Shown piece after piece: positions 47,643 to 55,501 of a DNA stretch of 64,000 bases. Each line of letters begins with the position of its first letter. Within the stretch, counting starts at the first letter, position 1. The translations under genes and the position numbers were made by a program. The stretch is from assembly GCA_047947115.1 (NCBI GenBank), contig CP170459.1:4256001-4320000 (forward strand). Direction: 5' to 3'. A model generated the notes under the pieces. It searched no databases, was not told where the DNA came from, and saw only the letters and a list, made by a program, of their open reading frames with translations. The DNA comes from Verrucomicrobiota bacterium. Lineage in GTDB: Bacteria > Verrucomicrobiota > Verrucomicrobiia > Limisphaerales > AAA164-E04.

Positions 47643-48154
47643 GTAACCGCATACACCAGAATGTGCCCCTCCCAACGCTCCCCCACGTAGCCGCATTCGC
47701 CAGAATGTGCCCCCCCAACGCTCCCCCACGTAGCCGCATTCGCCAGAATGTGCCCCCCCAACGCTCCCCCACGTAGCCGCATTCGCCAGAATGTGGCCCC
47801 CCAACGCTTCCCCACGTAGCCGCATTCGCCAGAATGTGGCCCCCCAACGCTCCCCCACGTAGCCGCATTCGCCAGAATGTGGTCCCCCAACGCTCCCCCA
47901 CGTAGCCGCATTCGCCAGAATGTGGTCCCCCAACGCTCCCCCACGTAGCCGCATTCGCCAGAATGTGGCCCCCCAACGCTCCCCCACGTAGCCGCATTCG
48001 CCAGAATGTGGCCCCCCAACGCTCCCCCACGTAGCCGCATTCGCCAGAATGTGGTCCCCCAACGCTCCCCCACGTAGCCGCATTCGCCAGAATGTGGCCC
48101 CCCAACGCTCCCCCACGTAGCCGCATTCGCCAGAATGTGGTCCCCCAACGCTCC
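47643..48154 (+). repeat. Tandem array of 12 x 43-bp GTAG-REP units
   Basis: Unit gtagccgcattcgccagaatgtggccccccaacgctcccccac; GTAG every 43 bp from 47687 to 48117, plus a degenerate first copy. Confidence 0.95.
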
Positions 48155-49459: not shown

Positions 49460-52400
49460 TCACGAACGTTTGCGGGGCCTCCCCGCCCTCAACACCCGCA
49501 ACGAAAATCCCCTCCCATTCTCATAAGGTTCCACCCGGGCGTTGACCTCCAGCACCGGATACCTCACCGTGGCCAATCCGTAACTCCGATACGTCGAGGC
49601 AAACAACTCCGTCTCCACCATCCCCGTCCAGTCCGCCAGGGTCAGGAATTTCATGGGCTCACCGGTAACCTGATGATGCAATCGCTGCTCAATCACCAAG
49701 CCACAGGTGGTGATTTCCTGTCCGATATAATGTCCCAGGCGTTTCACCGGACAATAGGTCTCCCACGCCACCTCCGGATGCAGATCCAGCAGATGACCCG
49801 ACACCGGGAACCCCAGAGCCTCGTCCTCCCATTCCAGACGCTGTTGCCATGAAGGCTCCTGCAACGTGGTTTTCGGCAAACGCTCCGTGTCCGGCGGCGG
49901 CAACAACCAGCCCTGATCCGGACATTCCCGATCCGAAAAAGTCCGGTTCAAAAACTGTGACACCCAGAACTGGGACGTACGCGTCTTGCCAAACGCATCA
50001 AATGCCCCCACACGAATCAAGCGTTCCATCTCATCCGCCAGCGGAAACACCCGCCGGTGGAAATCAGCCATCGAAACAAACTTTCCCTTCGCACGTTCGT
50101 TGACCACCCGTTGCACCGTTTGATCCGTCAGGCCCTTGATCGCGCTCAACGGCACGCGAATGCCCCGCTTCGCCAGGCGATGACGTTGTGATGTCTGACG
50201 GGACTCGGCAGGATCCCCCAAACGCTCCACCTGATAACCGGGGCCCGGGGCTTGGATCGAAGGCGGCAACAGAGGAATCCCCAGACGATCGCACTCCAGC
50301 ACATAAACCAGCGGATGATAAAACCCCTTCCCTTGCGTCAACACCGAGGCCATGAACTCGGCGGGAAAATAACACTTCATCCAGGCCGACTGATATGCCT
50401 CCACCCCGTAGGCCGTGCTGTGCGCCTTGCAGAACGCGTAGCCATTGAAGCCGCTGACCAGTTCCCACACCTCTTGAATTTTCTCCTCTCCATGCCCGCG
50501 CTTGAGCGCCGAGGCGAAAAACTCGCGACGAATCTCCTCAATCGTGGCCGCCTTCCGCTTATTCAACGCACGCCGCAGCACATCCGCACGCCCCGGTGGC
50601 AGCCCGGCAAACCGCTCGCTGATCTGCAGAATGTGTTCCTCATAAACGACCAGACCAAAGGTGCTCCGCAAACAATCGGCCAACGAAGGATGCGGATAGA
50701 CAGGTTCCTCCATCTTCTGATAACGGCGAGTGAAACGAAGTTTCTTCTGTTCATTGGCCGCCCCCGGGCGAATCACCGACACGATGGCCACCAGCCCGTC
50801 AATCTCCCGTACATTACACATCCTGCAGAGACTCACCATGGCCGGACTCTCGATATGATGCACCGCGCGCGCGCCGCCCCCGGCAATCATCGCCCAGACC
50901 TTCGGGTCCGTCCACGGATCGGTCTCCGGCGCTGCGATCGTCTCGGGAGGCCCATCTTCACCCGGCTGCATGATGCGCCACTGACATCGATCCAGATCCA
51001 TCCGAATCCCGCGCACCTGCAACATCTCCCCGACATCCCGCATCACCGACAAGCCGCCCTGGGCCAGGATATCCATCTTGACCAGACCGATTTCTTCCAC
51101 GGCATCCATGTCGAAATGCGTCGTCGGGTATCCCTTGTTCGCCTTGAACGTCGGGGTGAGATGATGCATCGGTTGACGGGACAACACCACGCCACAGGGA
51201 TGCATCTTCGGATAACGCGGAAACCCGTCCAGAAACTCCGCCATCCGCAAAGCCGTCGAATAGGGTTCTTCCTGGAGTGGCAGATCGCGGCATTCCTGAT
51301 TCCGGGCAATGAAGCTGCTCATGTCCCGCGCGCCTGCATAAGGAAACCGTTCGGTTACCCGCCGGATCTGATATTCCGAAACGCCCAATACCTTGGCGAC
51401 ATCCCCCATCGCTCCGCGTGATTTGTAGGTCGAAAAACCACCCACCACGGCACAGTATTTCTCACCGTATTTGCGGAAGATCAGGTCAATCACATCATCC
51501 TTCCGGTCATGAGGAAAATCCACATCGATATCCGGTAACTTGTGCAAGGCCATGCGGTCCTTGTTCAGAAAACGTTTAAAATACAGTTCAAACCGAATCG
51601 GACACACATCACTGATTCGAAGGCAATAACACACCAACGAATCCGCCGCGCTCCCCCGTGTGATCCAATGAATCCCCGCCGCCCGGCAATCCTGCAACAG
51701 ATTCCACACCACCAGGAAATATTCCTCGTAGCCCACATCATGAATGATCGCCAGTTCCTCCTCCACCTGACGTTGCACACGTTCGCGCCGGGACGCCGGA
51801 TAACGTTCCGCCAGTCCCTTCATCACCAGCTTGCGCAGAAAAGATCGCGGCGACGAACCATCCGGCGGACGGTAATCCGGAAACTGCGGCGGCCCCAACG
51901 GCATCTGGAAATCACGACAACGCTCTGCAATCTCCCGGGTGCGTTCAAACACTTGCGGATGCTCCTTCCACAAATCCCGCCAGGTGTGCATGACCGGATA
52001 ATGCAAGGTCCCGCTCTGATCCTTGTCGGGATGACGCTGCTTCAGCAAGGTCAGGGTGCGAATGGACTGCACCACATCGTATTTCCAATAATCTTTCGGC
52101 AAGGCATAATGCACCGGCGTCACCGCCACGACAGGACTCTGTTGATCGGCAAATTTTTTCAATACCCCGGGATGTTCCGCCCCGCGGTAAAACCGGTTTT
52201 CAAAAAAGGATTCAAGTCGGGGATCCTTTCCAATCGCGATCAAACCATCCGTCGGAACCGAAGCCAATTGATGCCGCGTCCAATGCCCGTGTCCGCTCAA
52301 ACGCCGGATCAGAGCCGTCGATTCCTGCGAGGCATCGGAAACCGGTTTCTTCCGCCCTTTCCGTCCGCGTTGCAAAGGCACGGGCGGCGGTTTCTCGACG

Positions 52401-54088
52401 GGTGATTTGGACGAAAGCAGTTGGCACAGGTTGCGGTAACCGGTTTCGTTCTGCGCATATAGCAGCAAGGGCTCGCCATCCACACCGATCTCCGCCCCGA
52501 TGACCGGTTGAATCCCCTGTTCTTTGGCGCATTGATAAAACGGCACCGCGCCATGCAGGTTCCCCTGGTCCACCATGGCCACGGCGGGTTGCTGTTGCTC
52601 GCAGGCCAAGCGCACGACATCCTCTACCGACAAGGCCGAGTTCAGAAAGGAGTAATAACTTTTGACGTTCAACGCCACCGGCGTCACCACACGACGACGC
52701 ACCGGGGTTGACCGGGAAACCGGTGCCCGATCACCGCGTCCAGCATCCACCGCATCCCCATAGCGGGATGCGCGCTCGGTCATGACTTGTCCCGTAGCCG
52801 GGGAGGGTGGATACACTCGTATCTGCCGTCCTGTGACGCCATCCGTTCGTTCGCGAGAAGGTTTTTCCGATTCTTCGCGTCCGGGGTTTTGTTCGTGTTG
52901 TTTGACCGCGTCCCGCAAAATGAAATCATGCCCACGCAGAATCGCACCGGGACCGCACCGACGCTTCAGATCATCCACGATCCGCGCCAGGCGACGGCGT
53001 GATTCACGTTGTTCGGAAGCACGGTCGAGGGTCAGTTCGCTGCGATAAAAACTGTCGTAAATATTGGACAACTTGAGCGACACCAAACGCAGACTCACCC
53101 GCCGCCGCCAGGCCTTGCGCAACAGGATGCCCAAGCGACCGTAGATATCGGTCTCCAGATCGGTGGGTTCCTCCAGACTTTCCCCGCATTGATCCTCCAT
53201 CATGTCGTTGTAACGCACCTTGACGGTCAGGGTGCGGACGCATTTGCCATCCGCACGCACCTTGGCCATGAGTGTGTCGGCCATGCGCCGCAAGGTGGCC
53301 TCAATGCGATCCTCATCGGTCTGATCTTCTCCGAACGTTTCCTGTTTCCCATACGACTTGGCCGGTGCGGATACCGCCACGATGGGGCGATCATCCACCC
53401 CGTCGGCATACTCCCGGATGCGCGGCGCAATGTTCCCCAGAATCAAATGCAACAGATCCGTCGAAGTCGCCGAAATCTGCCCGATCCGGGCCAACCCGGC
53501 GGCATTCAAACGCGACGCCGTCTTGGCTCCGATCCCCGGCAACCAATGGTTGGGCAGCGGATGCAGAAACGGAATTTCATACCCCTTCTCGATCTCCTGA
53601 AATGCGGCGGGTTTGTGCAGTTTGGACGCGATCTGGCTGATCAGTTTGTTCGTGCCGATTCCTTCGCTGACCGTAATTTTCAGCGATTGACCAATGGCTT
53701 TGCGAATGATCTGGGCGATTTCGGACGCCGGTTTGCGCACGCCGGAAAGGTCGAAGTAACCTTCATCGATCGAAGTGATCTCCACATCCGGCGTAAAATC
53801 ATAGGCATACGAAAACATCCAGCGGGAGAAGCGTTCGTATTTCTCGTAATCCCCCGGCAACAGAATCAGTTTCGGACACAACTTCCGCGCCTGTACCGTC
53901 GGCATCGGAGTATAAATCCCGAATTTCCGCGCCTCATACGACGCCGCGGCGATGATCCCCCTTTTCTCGCCCCCCACCGCCACCGGCTTGCCCCGCAACC
54001 GCGTATCAGACGCCTGCTCCACCGAAGCAAAAAAAGCGTCCGCATCCAAATGAACCATCGTTCGTCGCAATGGAGAAGCACCTGCCAT
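49460..54088 (-). CDS. Fused DNA polymerase IV (DinB, Y-family) and DnaE2-like DNA polymerase III alpha
   Basis: HLDADAFFASVEQ, SYEAR, SIDEGY, little-finger domain; linker; degenerate PHP, RGSAA, PDIDVDF, HPCGVV, KMDIL, FNGYAFCKAHS, OB fold. Confidence 0.92.
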   Translation of the reverse strand: MAGASPLRRTMVHLDADAFFASVEQASDTRLRGKPVAVGGEKRGIIAAASYEARKFGIYTPMPTVQARKLCPKLILLPGDYEKYERFSRWMFSYAYDFTPDVEITSIDEGYFDLSGVRKPASEIAQIIRKAIGQSLKITVSEGIGTNKLISQIASKLHKPAAFQEIEKGYEIPFLHPLPNHWLPGIGAKTASRLNAAGLARIGQISATSTDLLHLILGNIAPRIREYADGVDDRPIVAVSAPAKSYGKQETFGEDQTDEDRIEATLRRMADTLMAKVRADGKCVRTLTVKVRYNDMMEDQCGESLEEPTDLETDIYGRLGILLRKAWRRRVSLRLVSLKLSNIYDSFYRSELTLDRASEQRESRRRLARIVDDLKRRCGPGAILRGHDFILRDAVKQHEQNPGREESEKPSRERTDGVTGRQIRVYPPSPATGQVMTERASRYGDAVDAGRGDRAPVSRSTPVRRRVVTPVALNVKSYYSFLNSALSVEDVVRLACEQQQPAVAMVDQGNLHGAVPFYQCAKEQGIQPVIGAEIGVDGEPLLLYAQNETGYRNLCQLLSSKSPVEKPPPVPLQRGRKGRKKPVSDASQESTALIRRLSGHGHWTRHQLASVPTDGLIAIGKDPRLESFFENRFYRGAEHPGVLKKFADQQSPVVAVTPVHYALPKDYWKYDVVQSIRTLTLLKQRHPDKDQSGTLHYPVMHTWRDLWKEHPQVFERTREIAERCRDFQMPLGPPQFPDYRPPDGSSPRSFLRKLVMKGLAERYPASRRERVQRQVEEELAIIHDVGYEEYFLVVWNLLQDCRAAGIHWITRGSAADSLVCYCLRISDVCPIRFELYFKRFLNKDRMALHKLPDIDVDFPHDRKDDVIDLIFRKYGEKYCAVVGGFSTYKSRGAMGDVAKVLGVSEYQIRRVTERFPYAGARDMSSFIARNQECRDLPLQEEPYSTALRMAEFLDGFPRYPKMHPCGVVLSRQPMHHLTPTFKANKGYPTTHFDMDAVEEIGLVKMDILAQGGLSVMRDVGEMLQVRGIRMDLDRCQWRIMQPGEDGPPETIAAPETDPWTDPKVWAMIAGGGARAVHHIESPAMVSLCRMCNVREIDGLVAIVSVIRPGAANEQKKLRFTRRYQKMEEPVYPHPSLADCLRSTFGLVVYEEHILQISERFAGLPPGRADVLRRALNKRKAATIEEIRREFFASALKRGHGEEKIQEVWELVSGFNGYAFCKAHSTAYGVEAYQSAWMKCYFPAEFMASVLTQGKGFYHPLVYVLECDRLGIPLLPPSIQAPGPGYQVERLGDPAESRQTSQRHRLAKRGIRVPLSAIKGLTDQTVQRVVNERAKGKFVSMADFHRRVFPLADEMERLIRVGAFDAFGKTRTSQFWVSQFLNRTFSDRECPDQGWLLPPPDTERLPKTTLQEPSWQQRLEWEDEALGFPVSGHLLDLHPEVAWETYCPVKRLGHYIGQEITTCGLVIEQRLHHQVTGEPMKFLTLADWTGMVETELFASTYRSYGLATVRYPVLEVNARVEPYENGRGFSLRVLRAGRPRKRS

Positions 54089-54108
54089 ACTGTTCGCTTG
54101 AACAGTAT
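54087..54108. promoter_or_regulatory. LexA-type SOS box (TGTTC-N4-GAACA)
   Basis: ATACTGTTC-GCTT-GAACAGTAT, perfect 9-bp arms, touching the start codon. Confidence 0.8.
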
Positions 54109-54129
54109 CTGAACGACGAGCGGTGTCAA
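54102..54129 (-). promoter_or_regulatory. sigma70 promoter of the polymerase fusion
   Basis: TTGACA-N16-TACTGT on the minus strand; the -10 lies within the SOS box. Confidence 0.65.
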
Positions 54130-54130
54130 T

Positions 54131-54277
54131 TTAGGTTTTAGCTTTTAGGTTTTAGATGTTAGCTTTTAGCTTTTAGTTTTTAGCCGTTAGCCGTTAGCCG
54201 TTAGCCGTTAGCCGTTAGCCGTTAGCCGTTAGCCGTTAGTCGTTAGCCGTTAGTCGTTAGCCGTTAGTCGTTAGCTG
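54131..54277. repeat. Heptamer tandem array (TTAGNNN) x21
   Basis: Seven TTAGCTT-like units followed by TTAGCCG/TTAGTCG units, all in 7-bp register. Confidence 0.95.
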
Positions 54278-55307
54278 TCTTCCCATCTTCTCCACGTGAC
54301 AGAATACGATAGATTTTGGTGCGATTGATGCCCAGGAGTTTAGCTGCTTTGGACATATTGCCGTCCGCTTTGGTTAGGGCACGCCGGGTGAGTATGAATT
54401 CGGCTTCTTCCAGATTATCAGGCAATTCCGGATCAGCCCCATGGCTTCCACTCTCAGTTTCAACTTGAGACAGACCCTGTGCTTCACTCGGCTGCTGCAG
54501 TCGCAATTGCCTGGCATCGATAATACCTGCGGGAGATTCAATGGTGGCGCGTTCCAGGATGCTTTTGAGTTCACGAACATTGCCAGGAAATGCGTAATCC
54601 ATCAGCGCTTTCCAGGCATTTTCGCTCAGGGATGGTGTGATTCGCCCCAGTTCCACAGCAAAACGATGGAGAAAATGCGCAGTCAGCAGTTCGACATCCT
54701 CACGGCGTTCCCGCAAGGGCTGTAATTCAATTTCATCTCCCACTATAAAACCACGAGCTGCGCTCCTTTCATCCCCAAAGGCATCGATTGAAACTGATAA
54801 TGGATCTGAACCAACCAAATTGCCATTGATATAAAATTTAATGTCCTCAGGTCCAGCAACCGCCGCCACATGCATCCATTCCCCAATCCGGATATAATCG
54901 CGCATCGTCATACGATTTGTTCCTTGGGAAGTTAGGATAAAAAAATTAATGTCTGCCGTTCCATTTCCTCGATGGATACTAAAACCATCTTGACCGGAAA
55001 CGTATAAGAAAATGCTATCTTGTCCTGACAGATCATCCCACCGAACCCAAGTCTCAATCGTCAATGCTGACAAGGTTTTGAACACCTCATATCCACCGTT
55101 TTCAAGTTCGATGTAAGAATCGTCTTCCGAAAATTGAAGCACATGATTTGGCAAGATTTGGTCCTGCCCAAAGAGCGCAGTCGTGTGGGTTAATCCGAGA
55201 ATGAGGAAGGACAATGTTATCCACCCCCGCAATCCAAGCTGGATTGAATGACACACCGACAGAACGTCGCGTTTTGCTTCTAAGGTTTTCATGGACATTT
55301 CAAGCAT
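54264..55307 (-). CDS. Chimeric LamG/ConA-like domain plus C-terminal fragment of a sigma54 activator (lid + Fis HTH); possible deletion remnant
   Basis: LTIETWVR, GEWMHVAAV, FYING; then PLRERREDV, FPGNVRELK, GNMSKAAKLLGINR; no Walker A, GAFTGA or Walker B. Confidence 0.65.
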   Translation of the reverse strand: MLEMSMKTLEAKRDVLSVCHSIQLGLRGWITLSFLILGLTHTTALFGQDQILPNHVLQFSEDDSYIELENGGYEVFKTLSALTIETWVRWDDLSGQDSIFLYVSGQDGFSIHRGNGTADINFFILTSQGTNRMTMRDYIRIGEWMHVAAVAGPEDIKFYINGNLVGSDPLSVSIDAFGDERSAARGFIVGDEIELQPLRERREDVELLTAHFLHRFAVELGRITPSLSENAWKALMDYAFPGNVRELKSILERATIESPAGIIDARQLRLQQPSEAQGLSQVETESGSHGADPELPDNLEEAEFILTRRALTKADGNMSKAAKLLGINRTKIYRILSRGEDGKTAND

Positions 55308-55318
55308 GGATTTTCATT

Positions 55319-55334
55319 AGCAACCGGAATGCCA
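55319..55334 (-). promoter_or_regulatory. sigma54 (-24/-12) promoter
   Basis: TGGCAT-TCCGG-TTGCT on the minus strand, just upstream of the 55307 ORF. Confidence 0.6.
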
Positions 55335-55409
55335 AATAGTCTACCCAATTATTATCCAATAATAAAGAACGACTTAACAACAAATCCGCCATGCTTCCAT
55401 GTAAAACGG

Positions 55410-55449
55410 AGATGACACAAGTGTTCATATGTGAACACTTGTGTCATCT
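55410..55449. repeat. 40-bp palindrome (candidate enhancer site or terminator)
   Basis: AGATGACACAAGTGTTCA-TATG-TGAACACTTGTGTCATCT, perfect 18-bp arms. Confidence 0.85.
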
Positions 55450-55459
55450 GGATGTGATT

Positions 55460-55501
55460 TTAGCTCTTAGCTCTTAGCTTTTAGCAGTTAGCTTTTAGGT
55501 T
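55460..55501. repeat. Heptamer tandem array (TTAGNNN) x6
   Basis: ttagctc ttagctc ttagctt ttagcag ttagctt ttaggtt. Confidence 0.85.

What the first reader, a model, noticed from the sequence alone, without database searches (positions are those of the whole stretch)
49460..54088. Single-polypeptide two-polymerase mutasome: DinB/Pol IV with intact motifs fused to a DnaE2-like polymerase
Seen: one uninterrupted 1542-aa ORF. About the first 390 aa are a Y-family polymerase with intact catalytic motifs (HLDADAFFAS, SYEAR, SIDE). An ~80-aa Arg/Pro-rich linker (~52690-52920) follows, then a C-family alpha subunit with all three catalytic Asp (PDIDVD, KMDIL). Its PHP is degenerate (NVK in place of HxH), it ends after the OB fold, and it lacks the SRDFH-type tail. 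No imuA or imuB gene is in the window. Established: the canonical ImuA-ImuB-DnaE2 mutasome uses a catalytically dead Y-family ImuB as an adaptor that binds DnaE2 and the clamp. Inference: a covalent tether replaces that interface, and both active sites may work, giving an inserter/extender translesion machine in one chain. I cannot verify whether such fusions are already catalogued.
Basis: partly seen in the sequence, partly recalled or inferred. Interest (0 to 1): 0.88.

Follow-up and report, generated by a model that had tools for sequence, protein, structure and literature searches.

The report
Two SOS polymerases in one protein
One real, conserved gene of Verrucomicrobia joins two different DNA-copying enzymes, both with intact active-site residues, behind a DNA-damage-type operator; it likely works as a one-piece error-prone lesion-bypass machine, and databases name it but I found no paper that describes or tests it.

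Summary
Confirmed. Window 54088-49460 (minus strand) is one 1542-aa ORF: Y-family polymerase, variable linker, then a C-family polymerase. The catalytic acids of both halves are invariant in 120 of 120 aligned proteins, and both cores are under strong purifying selection. In the order, 57 of 63 matching genomes carry it in one long frame and none was seen split at the linker. The C half groups with ImuA/ImuB-less DnaE2B-type enzymes; the Y half is not ImuB-derived. Best reading: a covalent form of the predicted DnaE2B-PolY-RecA mutasome. Two-gene forms nest among fused ones in the class, so the tether is dispensable; insert-then-extend hand-off is untested. NCBI already names relatives 'fused DNA polymerase IV/DNA polymerase III subunit alpha'. 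Nine literature searches found no description, but the 2026 survey's supplement was unreadable. This scan noted the same fusion in seven other genomes. New variant of a known kind.

The parts
49460..54088 (-). Fused PolY-DnaE2B gene, 1542 aa
   Evidence: 120 full-length homologs listed
54087..54108 (.). Perfect 9-bp-arm palindrome (ATACTGTTC-N4-GAACAGTAT) over the start codon; likely LexA operator
   Evidence: 1 match in the window, 0.01 expected; a one-mismatch copy sits at the same place before the genome's own lexA
54124..54129 (-). TTGACA, likely -35 hexamer, 16 nt before TACTGT; same layout as lexA promoters of relatives
53054..54064 (-). Y-family core and little finger (aa 9-345); D15, D108, E109 intact; F20 at the steric-gate position (role recalled)
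53027..53038 (-). ELTL (aa 351-354), candidate weak beta-clamp motif; stand-alone relatives have QLxxF here
52922..53023 (-). RecA-N-terminus-like helix-Gly-strand arm (aa 356-389) ending in RGH, invariant in 120 of 120
52679..52915 (-). Variable, predicted-disordered linker (aa 392-470; 23-132 aa in homologs)
51884..52678 (-). PHP domain with metal ligands replaced (N474, K476, N483, P658); predicted non-proofreading
   Evidence: criterion
50279..51883 (-). C-family palm/thumb/fingers; D855, D857, D1006 invariant
49901..49915 (-). QGWLL (aa 1392-1396), candidate clamp motif at the place of the DnaE internal motif; Q and L invariant in 120 of 120
49469..49768 (-). C-terminal OB-type region (aa 1441-1540), 80% mean identity among homologs; no CTD, no SRDFH tail

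Best explanation
This is a single gene that fuses a Y-family polymerase to a DnaE2B-type C-family polymerase, both with intact catalytic residues, and it likely acts as a LexA-repressed, RecA- and clamp-recruited error-prone lesion-bypass machine in one chain. Shown: the fusion, its conservation, selection on both cores, the operator-like palindrome and the link to lexA. Inferred: DNA damage lifts LexA repression; the arm at aa 356-389 binds RecA as the matching motif is modelled to do in UmuC and other PolYs; ELTL and QGWLL could each engage the beta clamp. Most likely division of labour (untested): the Y site inserts opposite the lesion and the non-proofreading C site extends the distorted end or fills the gap, while the floppy linker keeps the two at 1:1 and speeds the switch. 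The fusion likely arose from a translationally coupled lexA-polY-dnaE2B operon and has likely been undone at least twice.
For: Catalytic D15/D108/E109 and D855/D857/D1006 invariant in 120 of 120. dN/dS against L093: 0.03 for the Y core, 0.02 for palm and fingers, 0.38 for the linker; similar against three more relatives where dS was not saturated. 72 of 80 GTDB loci fused, 2 broken inside the PHP domain, 6 cut by contig ends. 57 of 63 matching genomes of a 151-genome order sample have an open frame of at least 1348 aa, found with a C-half-only query. lexA lies on the same strand within 700 bp upstream in 70 of 72 loci. Here lexA is elsewhere, yet both genes carry the same promoter-operator layout. 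The tail aa 360-388 aligns without gaps to the RecA N-terminal motif (hhalign E 0.008; the best non-tail window scored 0.07). Table S2 of PMC6511836 scores the same motif in Opitutaceae PolYs at 94% DUF4113; stand-alone PolYs of that type are 45-47% identical to the Y half. Trees: C half in the DnaE2 radiation beside a Desulfosarcina lexA-iPolY-dnaE2 enzyme (SH-aLRT 96), apart from DnaE2A and DnaE1. The genome keeps a separate DnaE1 with intact PHP ligands. Two-gene relatives G005 and G004 have ATGA stop/start overlaps.
Against: No biochemistry, induction data or docking model; hand-off between the sites rests on analogy. hhalign probability for the RecA arm is only 5%, and a profile of the arm did not retrieve the genome's own RecA among 16,217 ORFs. 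ELTL and QGWLL both deviate from QL[S/D]LF. The strict TGTTC-N4-GAACA core (up to one mismatch) precedes lexA in only 11 of 70 loci, and its 17 exact genome matches (5.5 expected) include longer REP-like palindromes. Two-gene forms nest within the fused clade, so covalent linkage is not required. 88 of 151 order genomes had no match with this query.
Confidence: 0.6

Rival explanations
1. Both sites are active but work independently on different lesions or gaps; the linker only secures co-expression, 1:1 stoichiometry and shared recruitment, with no hand-off on one primer.
For: Linker length 23-132 aa at 8% identity, dN/dS 0.4-0.5, predicted disordered; two-gene forms persist; stand-alone PolYs of the same clade occur without an adjacent dnaE2 in six loci.
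Against: The fusion is kept in 13 of 17 matching genomes outside the order and almost always within it; RGH is invariant in the fused set but not in the stand-alone PolYs, hinting at a partner-specific role.
Confidence: 0.25
2. The Y half serves mainly as an ImuB-like adaptor (clamp and RecA binding) and the DnaE2 half does the mutagenic synthesis, as in the ImuA-ImuB-DnaE2 system.
For: In other DnaE2 systems the Y partner is usually dead (adaptor proteins lack the motifs).
Against: All Y catalytic and nucleotide-binding residues are invariant in 120 of 120 and the Y core has dN/dS about 0.03; adaptors lose them.
Confidence: 0.08
3. The protein is a backup or gap-filling replicase for stress or non-growing states rather than a lesion-bypass mutasome.
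For: The C half scores somewhat better against DnaE1-type models than against the error-prone model (622 vs 511 bits, both under cut-off); Streptomyces DnaE2 was not needed for UV mutagenesis (PMC3273824).
Against: PHP ligands lost, no CTD, intact DnaE1 present, tied to lexA, patchy distribution.
Confidence: 0.06
4. Assembly or frameshift artefact joining two neighbouring genes.
Against: Fused in 120 listed proteins and 72 of 80 independent loci, with linker indels that keep the frame.
Confidence: 0.01

Closest known systems
Predicted DnaE2B-PolY-RecA mutasome, active PolY type (Bacteroidetes, Cellulophaga algicola example; PMC6511836 passages, PMC12926913 section 19)
   Same: Two apparently active polymerases, RecA-NT-like motif on the PolY, no ImuA, ImuB or ImuB-C, SOS-type context.
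   Different: One polypeptide instead of two genes; Verrucomicrobiota PolY clade that the 2019 table lists as 'ungrouped'; relation to the Bacteroidetes enzymes not tested by tree.
ImuA-ImuB-DnaE2 (DnaE2A) mutasome
   Same: DnaE2-type polymerase with dead PHP, paired with a Y-family protein, behind lexA.
   Different: Y half catalytically intact, no ImuB-C, no ImuA, no SRDF[H/R] tail; only about 28% identical to DnaE2A of the same phylum; separate branch.
DinB / DNA polymerase IV
   Same: Fold and active site (best Foldseek hits are DinB-type, E 1e-31 to 1e-38).
   Different: Under all NCBIfam Pol IV cut-offs (best 252 vs 256 bits); carries a RecA-NT-like arm; fused; 34% identical to the genome's own dinB.
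NCBI product name 'fused DNA polymerase IV/DNA polymerase III subunit alpha'
   Same: The same architecture, on proteins 79% identical.
   Different: A name only; no function or paper attached in what I could see.

Membership tests
DnaE2B-PolY-RecA module | DnaE2 outside the DnaE2A clade, in a genome without imuA/imuB | tested here: met
DnaE2B-PolY-RecA module | Associated PolY with intact active site | tested here: met
   120 of 120
DnaE2B-PolY-RecA module | RecA-NT motif on the PolY | tested here: met
   E 0.008, low probability; published call on homologs; negative with a narrow profile, so moderate strength
DnaE2B-PolY-RecA module | Separate PolY and DnaE2 proteins forming a complex with RecA | tested here: not met
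   one ORF here, hence a variant; complex formation itself could not be modelled
DnaE2B-PolY-RecA module | Same clade as the Bacteroidetes PolY2/DnaE2B pair | not tested
   no named Bacteroidetes sequence was fetched
ImuA-ImuB-DnaE2 (DnaE2A) | Catalytically dead ImuB with ImuB-C domain | tested here: not met
ImuA-ImuB-DnaE2 (DnaE2A) | imuA in operon or genome | tested here: not met
   only recA found with these queries
ImuA-ImuB-DnaE2 (DnaE2A) | C-terminal SRDF[H/R] motif (about 77% of DnaE2) | tested here: not met
   0 of 120
DnaE2 (general) | Disrupted PHP site, no CTD, co-occurs with DnaE1 | tested here: met
DnaE2 (general) | Non-essential, error-prone, damage-inducible | not testable with these tools
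   operator and lexA linkage only
DnaE1 replicase | Intact PHP or epsilon partner, CTD, DnaE1 clade | tested here: not met

The most novel reading that the evidence does not exclude
A covalent polymerase tool belt: one chain whose two clamp motifs hold both clefts of the beta-clamp dimer, whose RecA arm switches it on at the end of a RecA filament, and whose Y and C active sites pass the same primer from insertion to extension. It would be the first natural bacterial enzyme with two working DNA polymerases of unrelated families, and a ready model for polymerase switching.
Probability: 0.3. Interest if true: 0.78.

Novelty: new variant of a known kind. Interest (0 to 1): 0.52.

Why it matters
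None of the 11 mutasome types in the main text of the 2026 survey is a PolY-DnaE2 fusion, and systems with two active polymerases are computational predictions only. A single chain with both sites makes a standing question directly testable: what each polymerase contributes, and whether insertion and extension are handed over on one clamp. It also appears to be a common SOS mutagenesis system in one order of soil and aquatic Verrucomicrobiota (63 of 151 genomes sampled). Natural fused and two-gene forms give a built-in comparison.

Tried and rejected
Reads across the linker: not available. Fourteen DNA runs hold 0.78-0.88 and six RNA runs 0.24-0.43 of the sampled words of 51500-54200; none was laid on the sequence, so this shows neither contiguity nor expression. 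A one-chain fold of aa 1-1060 (pTM 0.62) shows a disordered linker but cannot tell docking, and its Y core is poorly predicted (pLDDT about 40-70, against about 90 when folded alone). A narrow HMM of the RecA-like arm did not find RecA. The idea that lexA was deleted in place, leaving its promoter on the fusion, was not supported: upstream genes of lexA in relatives map elsewhere in this genome. One clade of fused proteins was rejected (AU p 0.0096, LG+G4, 17 rows, group named after earlier trees were seen). Names for the nearest unfused proteins: 9 of 10 clusters unnamed. Erill et al. 2016 on the Verrucomicrobia LexA motif is not held; I saw its title only and the TGTTC-N4-GAACA motif is recalled. 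The supplement of PMC12926913 was unreadable and could list such a fusion. Searches with no description of the fusion.
Full report
Observation. The ORF at 54088-49460 (minus strand) translates to 1542 aa without a stop. Pfam finds IMS and IMS_C in aa 14-343 and PHP, Pol III alpha, finger and HhH in aa 473-1371. The genome (one contig, 6.08 Mb, 95.8% complete) also encodes one DnaE1 with intact PHP ligands, one stand-alone dinB, one recA and one lexA. No imuA or imuB was found with six queries that did find ImuB in 2 of 3 control loci.

The fusion is real and conserved. All 120 best proteins listed carry both sets of domains and are 1388-1763 aa long; that search only admits proteins of 848-2699 aa, so I also looked at DNA. 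Of 80 GTDB loci, 72 are fused, 6 are cut by contig ends and 2 are broken inside the PHP domain, not at the linker. A C-half-only query matched 63 of 151 genomes of the order: 57 have an open frame of at least 1348 aa, 5 are cut by contig ends (one of them visibly fused) and 1 is frameshifted inside the PHP domain. All 7 same-genus genomes have the Y half in a frame of at least 1498 aa, one with an early break. In a 201-genome class sample 28 matched; outside the order 13 of 17 are fused. In a 301-genome phylum sample only the own genome and 5 others scored far above the DnaE1 background, so the system is patchy. Named relatives are mostly Verrucomicrobiota, often Limisphaerales or Pedosphaera.

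Both halves look alive. D15, D108, E109 (Y) and D853, D855, D857, D1006 (C) are invariant in 120 of 120 aligned proteins; 11 of 12 more distant fusions keep S-x-D-E and one was not inspected. Against the 95%-identical L093, dN/dS is 0.03 (Y core), 0.02 (palm, fingers), 0.03 (OB) and 0.38 (linker). The linker varies from 23 to 132 aa at 8% identity, its indels keep the frame, and it is predicted disordered. The Y half alone folds at pLDDT 89 and matches DinB structures. PHP metal ligands are replaced (N474, K476, N483, P658), which by the criterion in PMC12926913 section 14 means no proofreading.

What each half is. In a 157-row FastTree and a 36-row IQ-TREE the C half lies in the DnaE2 radiation, grouped (SH-aLRT 96) with a Desulfosarcina enzyme from a lexA-DUF72-inactive PolY-dnaE2 operon, and apart from DnaE2A and DnaE1. 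I call this DnaE2B-type from the definitions in PMC12926913 section 19; no Bacteroidetes reference was included. The Y half groups (97) with PolYs of two-gene relatives and with stand-alone verrucomicrobial PolYs, not with ImuB or the own dinB, though the outgroup branches are long.

(i) A perfect palindrome ATACTGTTC-N4-GAACAGTAT overlaps the start codon (54087-54108; 0.01 expected in the window), with TTGACA upstream. The own lexA has the same layout with one mismatch, and only three genome sites fit the 16-base core with up to two mismatches. The inner motif matches the Verrucomicrobia LexA box as I recall it; the paper was not readable. (ii) lexA lies directly upstream in 70 of 72 loci with enough flank (8 of 80 dropped: 6 without a Y half, 2 with short flank). 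In this lineage (window, L093) the operon has come apart and each gene keeps an operator. Operators vary across the order: the strict core precedes lexA in 11 of 70 loci and TACT-N12-AGTA in 25 of 70. (iii) aa 356-389 form a helix-Gly-strand arm that aligns without gaps to the RecA N-terminus (E 0.008, probability 5%; best non-tail window 0.07). The 2019 Table S2 assigns this motif to Opitutaceae PolYs at 94%. A narrow profile did not retrieve RecA. (iv) ELTL (aa 351-354) sits where stand-alone relatives have QLxxF, and QGWLL (aa 1392-1396; Q and L invariant) sits where DnaE1 has its internal clamp motif and two-gene G005 has QLSLF (consensus).

History. G005 and G004 keep polY and dnaE2 as two genes with an ATGA overlap, and G005 has an exact operator core upstream. 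In a 27-row tree a 100/100 clade holds 19 fused and 3 unfused rows, with G005 sister to two fused proteins (100/100); the fewest state changes is 3. Monophyly of fused rows was rejected in a smaller set (p-AU 0.0096). One old fusion plus at least two fissions is the simplest reading, but several fusions are not excluded. Either way the tether is dispensable.

Mechanism. Shown: architecture, conservation, selection, operator-like site, lexA linkage. Inferred: LexA repression and damage induction; RecA binding through the arm; clamp binding through one or both motifs; Y-site insertion followed by C-site extension. I put 0.6 on a cooperating two-site SOS mutasome, 0.25 on independent sites that are merely co-recruited, 0.08 on an adaptor-only Y half and 0.06 on a backup replicase.

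Known and new. PMC6511836 (passages, plus term search of its supplement; 'Verrucomicrobia' places 1-2 and 9-42 of 42 seen) and PMC12926913 (abstract, sections 5, 14, 19, passages; supplement unreadable) describe the two-gene active PolY + DnaE2B + RecA type as a prediction and mention no such fusion; the only 'fused' entry in the 2019 tables is ImuA-ImuB. Both used complete genomes, and the verrucomicrobial rows I saw in the 2019 tables include no member of this order. PMC3919608, PMC3273824, PMC3765255, PMC8565304 and PMC7739468 were read as passages only; the Streptomyces dnaE2-dinB2 'fusion' there is described as a 4-bp fusion of two genes in an operon, which I read as an overlap. Nine searches found no description; subscription journals are largely not covered. 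NCBI names the architecture. Seven earlier notes of this scan report the same fusion in other genomes; they agree with the reading I recorded before seeing them and are not independent evidence.

Verdict. A real, conserved, apparently unstudied single-chain variant of the DnaE2B-PolY-RecA mutasome. Interest 0.52.

Noticed in passing
window 54157-55479: About 1.3 kb just upstream of the promoter is absent from the 95%-identical relative L093. It is flanked by 7-bp tandem repeats (TTAGCYK type), has lower GC and holds a chimeric ORF (laminin-G-like domain plus only the lid and HTH of a sigma-54 activator).
   Followed up: partly
L065-L144, upstream of lexA: The palindrome before lexA keeps its position and outer ATAC/GTAT arms but its inner bases vary widely across the order (TGTTC, TGTAC, TATCC, TACTC, CGTAT types), suggesting fast change of LexA specificity; co-variation with the LexA recognition helix was not tested.
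   Followed up: partly
G000:C1 near 1341828-1394587; window 55410-55449: Longer REP-like palindromes contain a TGTTC...GAACA core and could confuse LexA-box scans in this genome.
   Followed up: no
window 47643-48154: Tandem array of a 43-bp unit, 11.9 copies, 97% matches; copies of a similar element occur at many genome sites (for related intergenic repeats).
   Followed up: no
L198 (G330), L197 (G418), L196 (G332), L070: Second or broken copies of the fusion behind lexA; in L198 lexA is followed directly by only the C-terminal 556 aa.
   Followed up: partly
aa 385-389 (window 52936-52922): RGHDF/RGHDL is kept in fused and operon-linked PolYs but not in stand-alone ones; it may be a DnaE2B- or RecA-contact element.
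   Followed up: partly
L150-L155: Stand-alone PolYs of the same clade, with QLxxF and the RecA-like arm, have no dnaE2 or lexA within the 14 kb fetched.
   Followed up: partly
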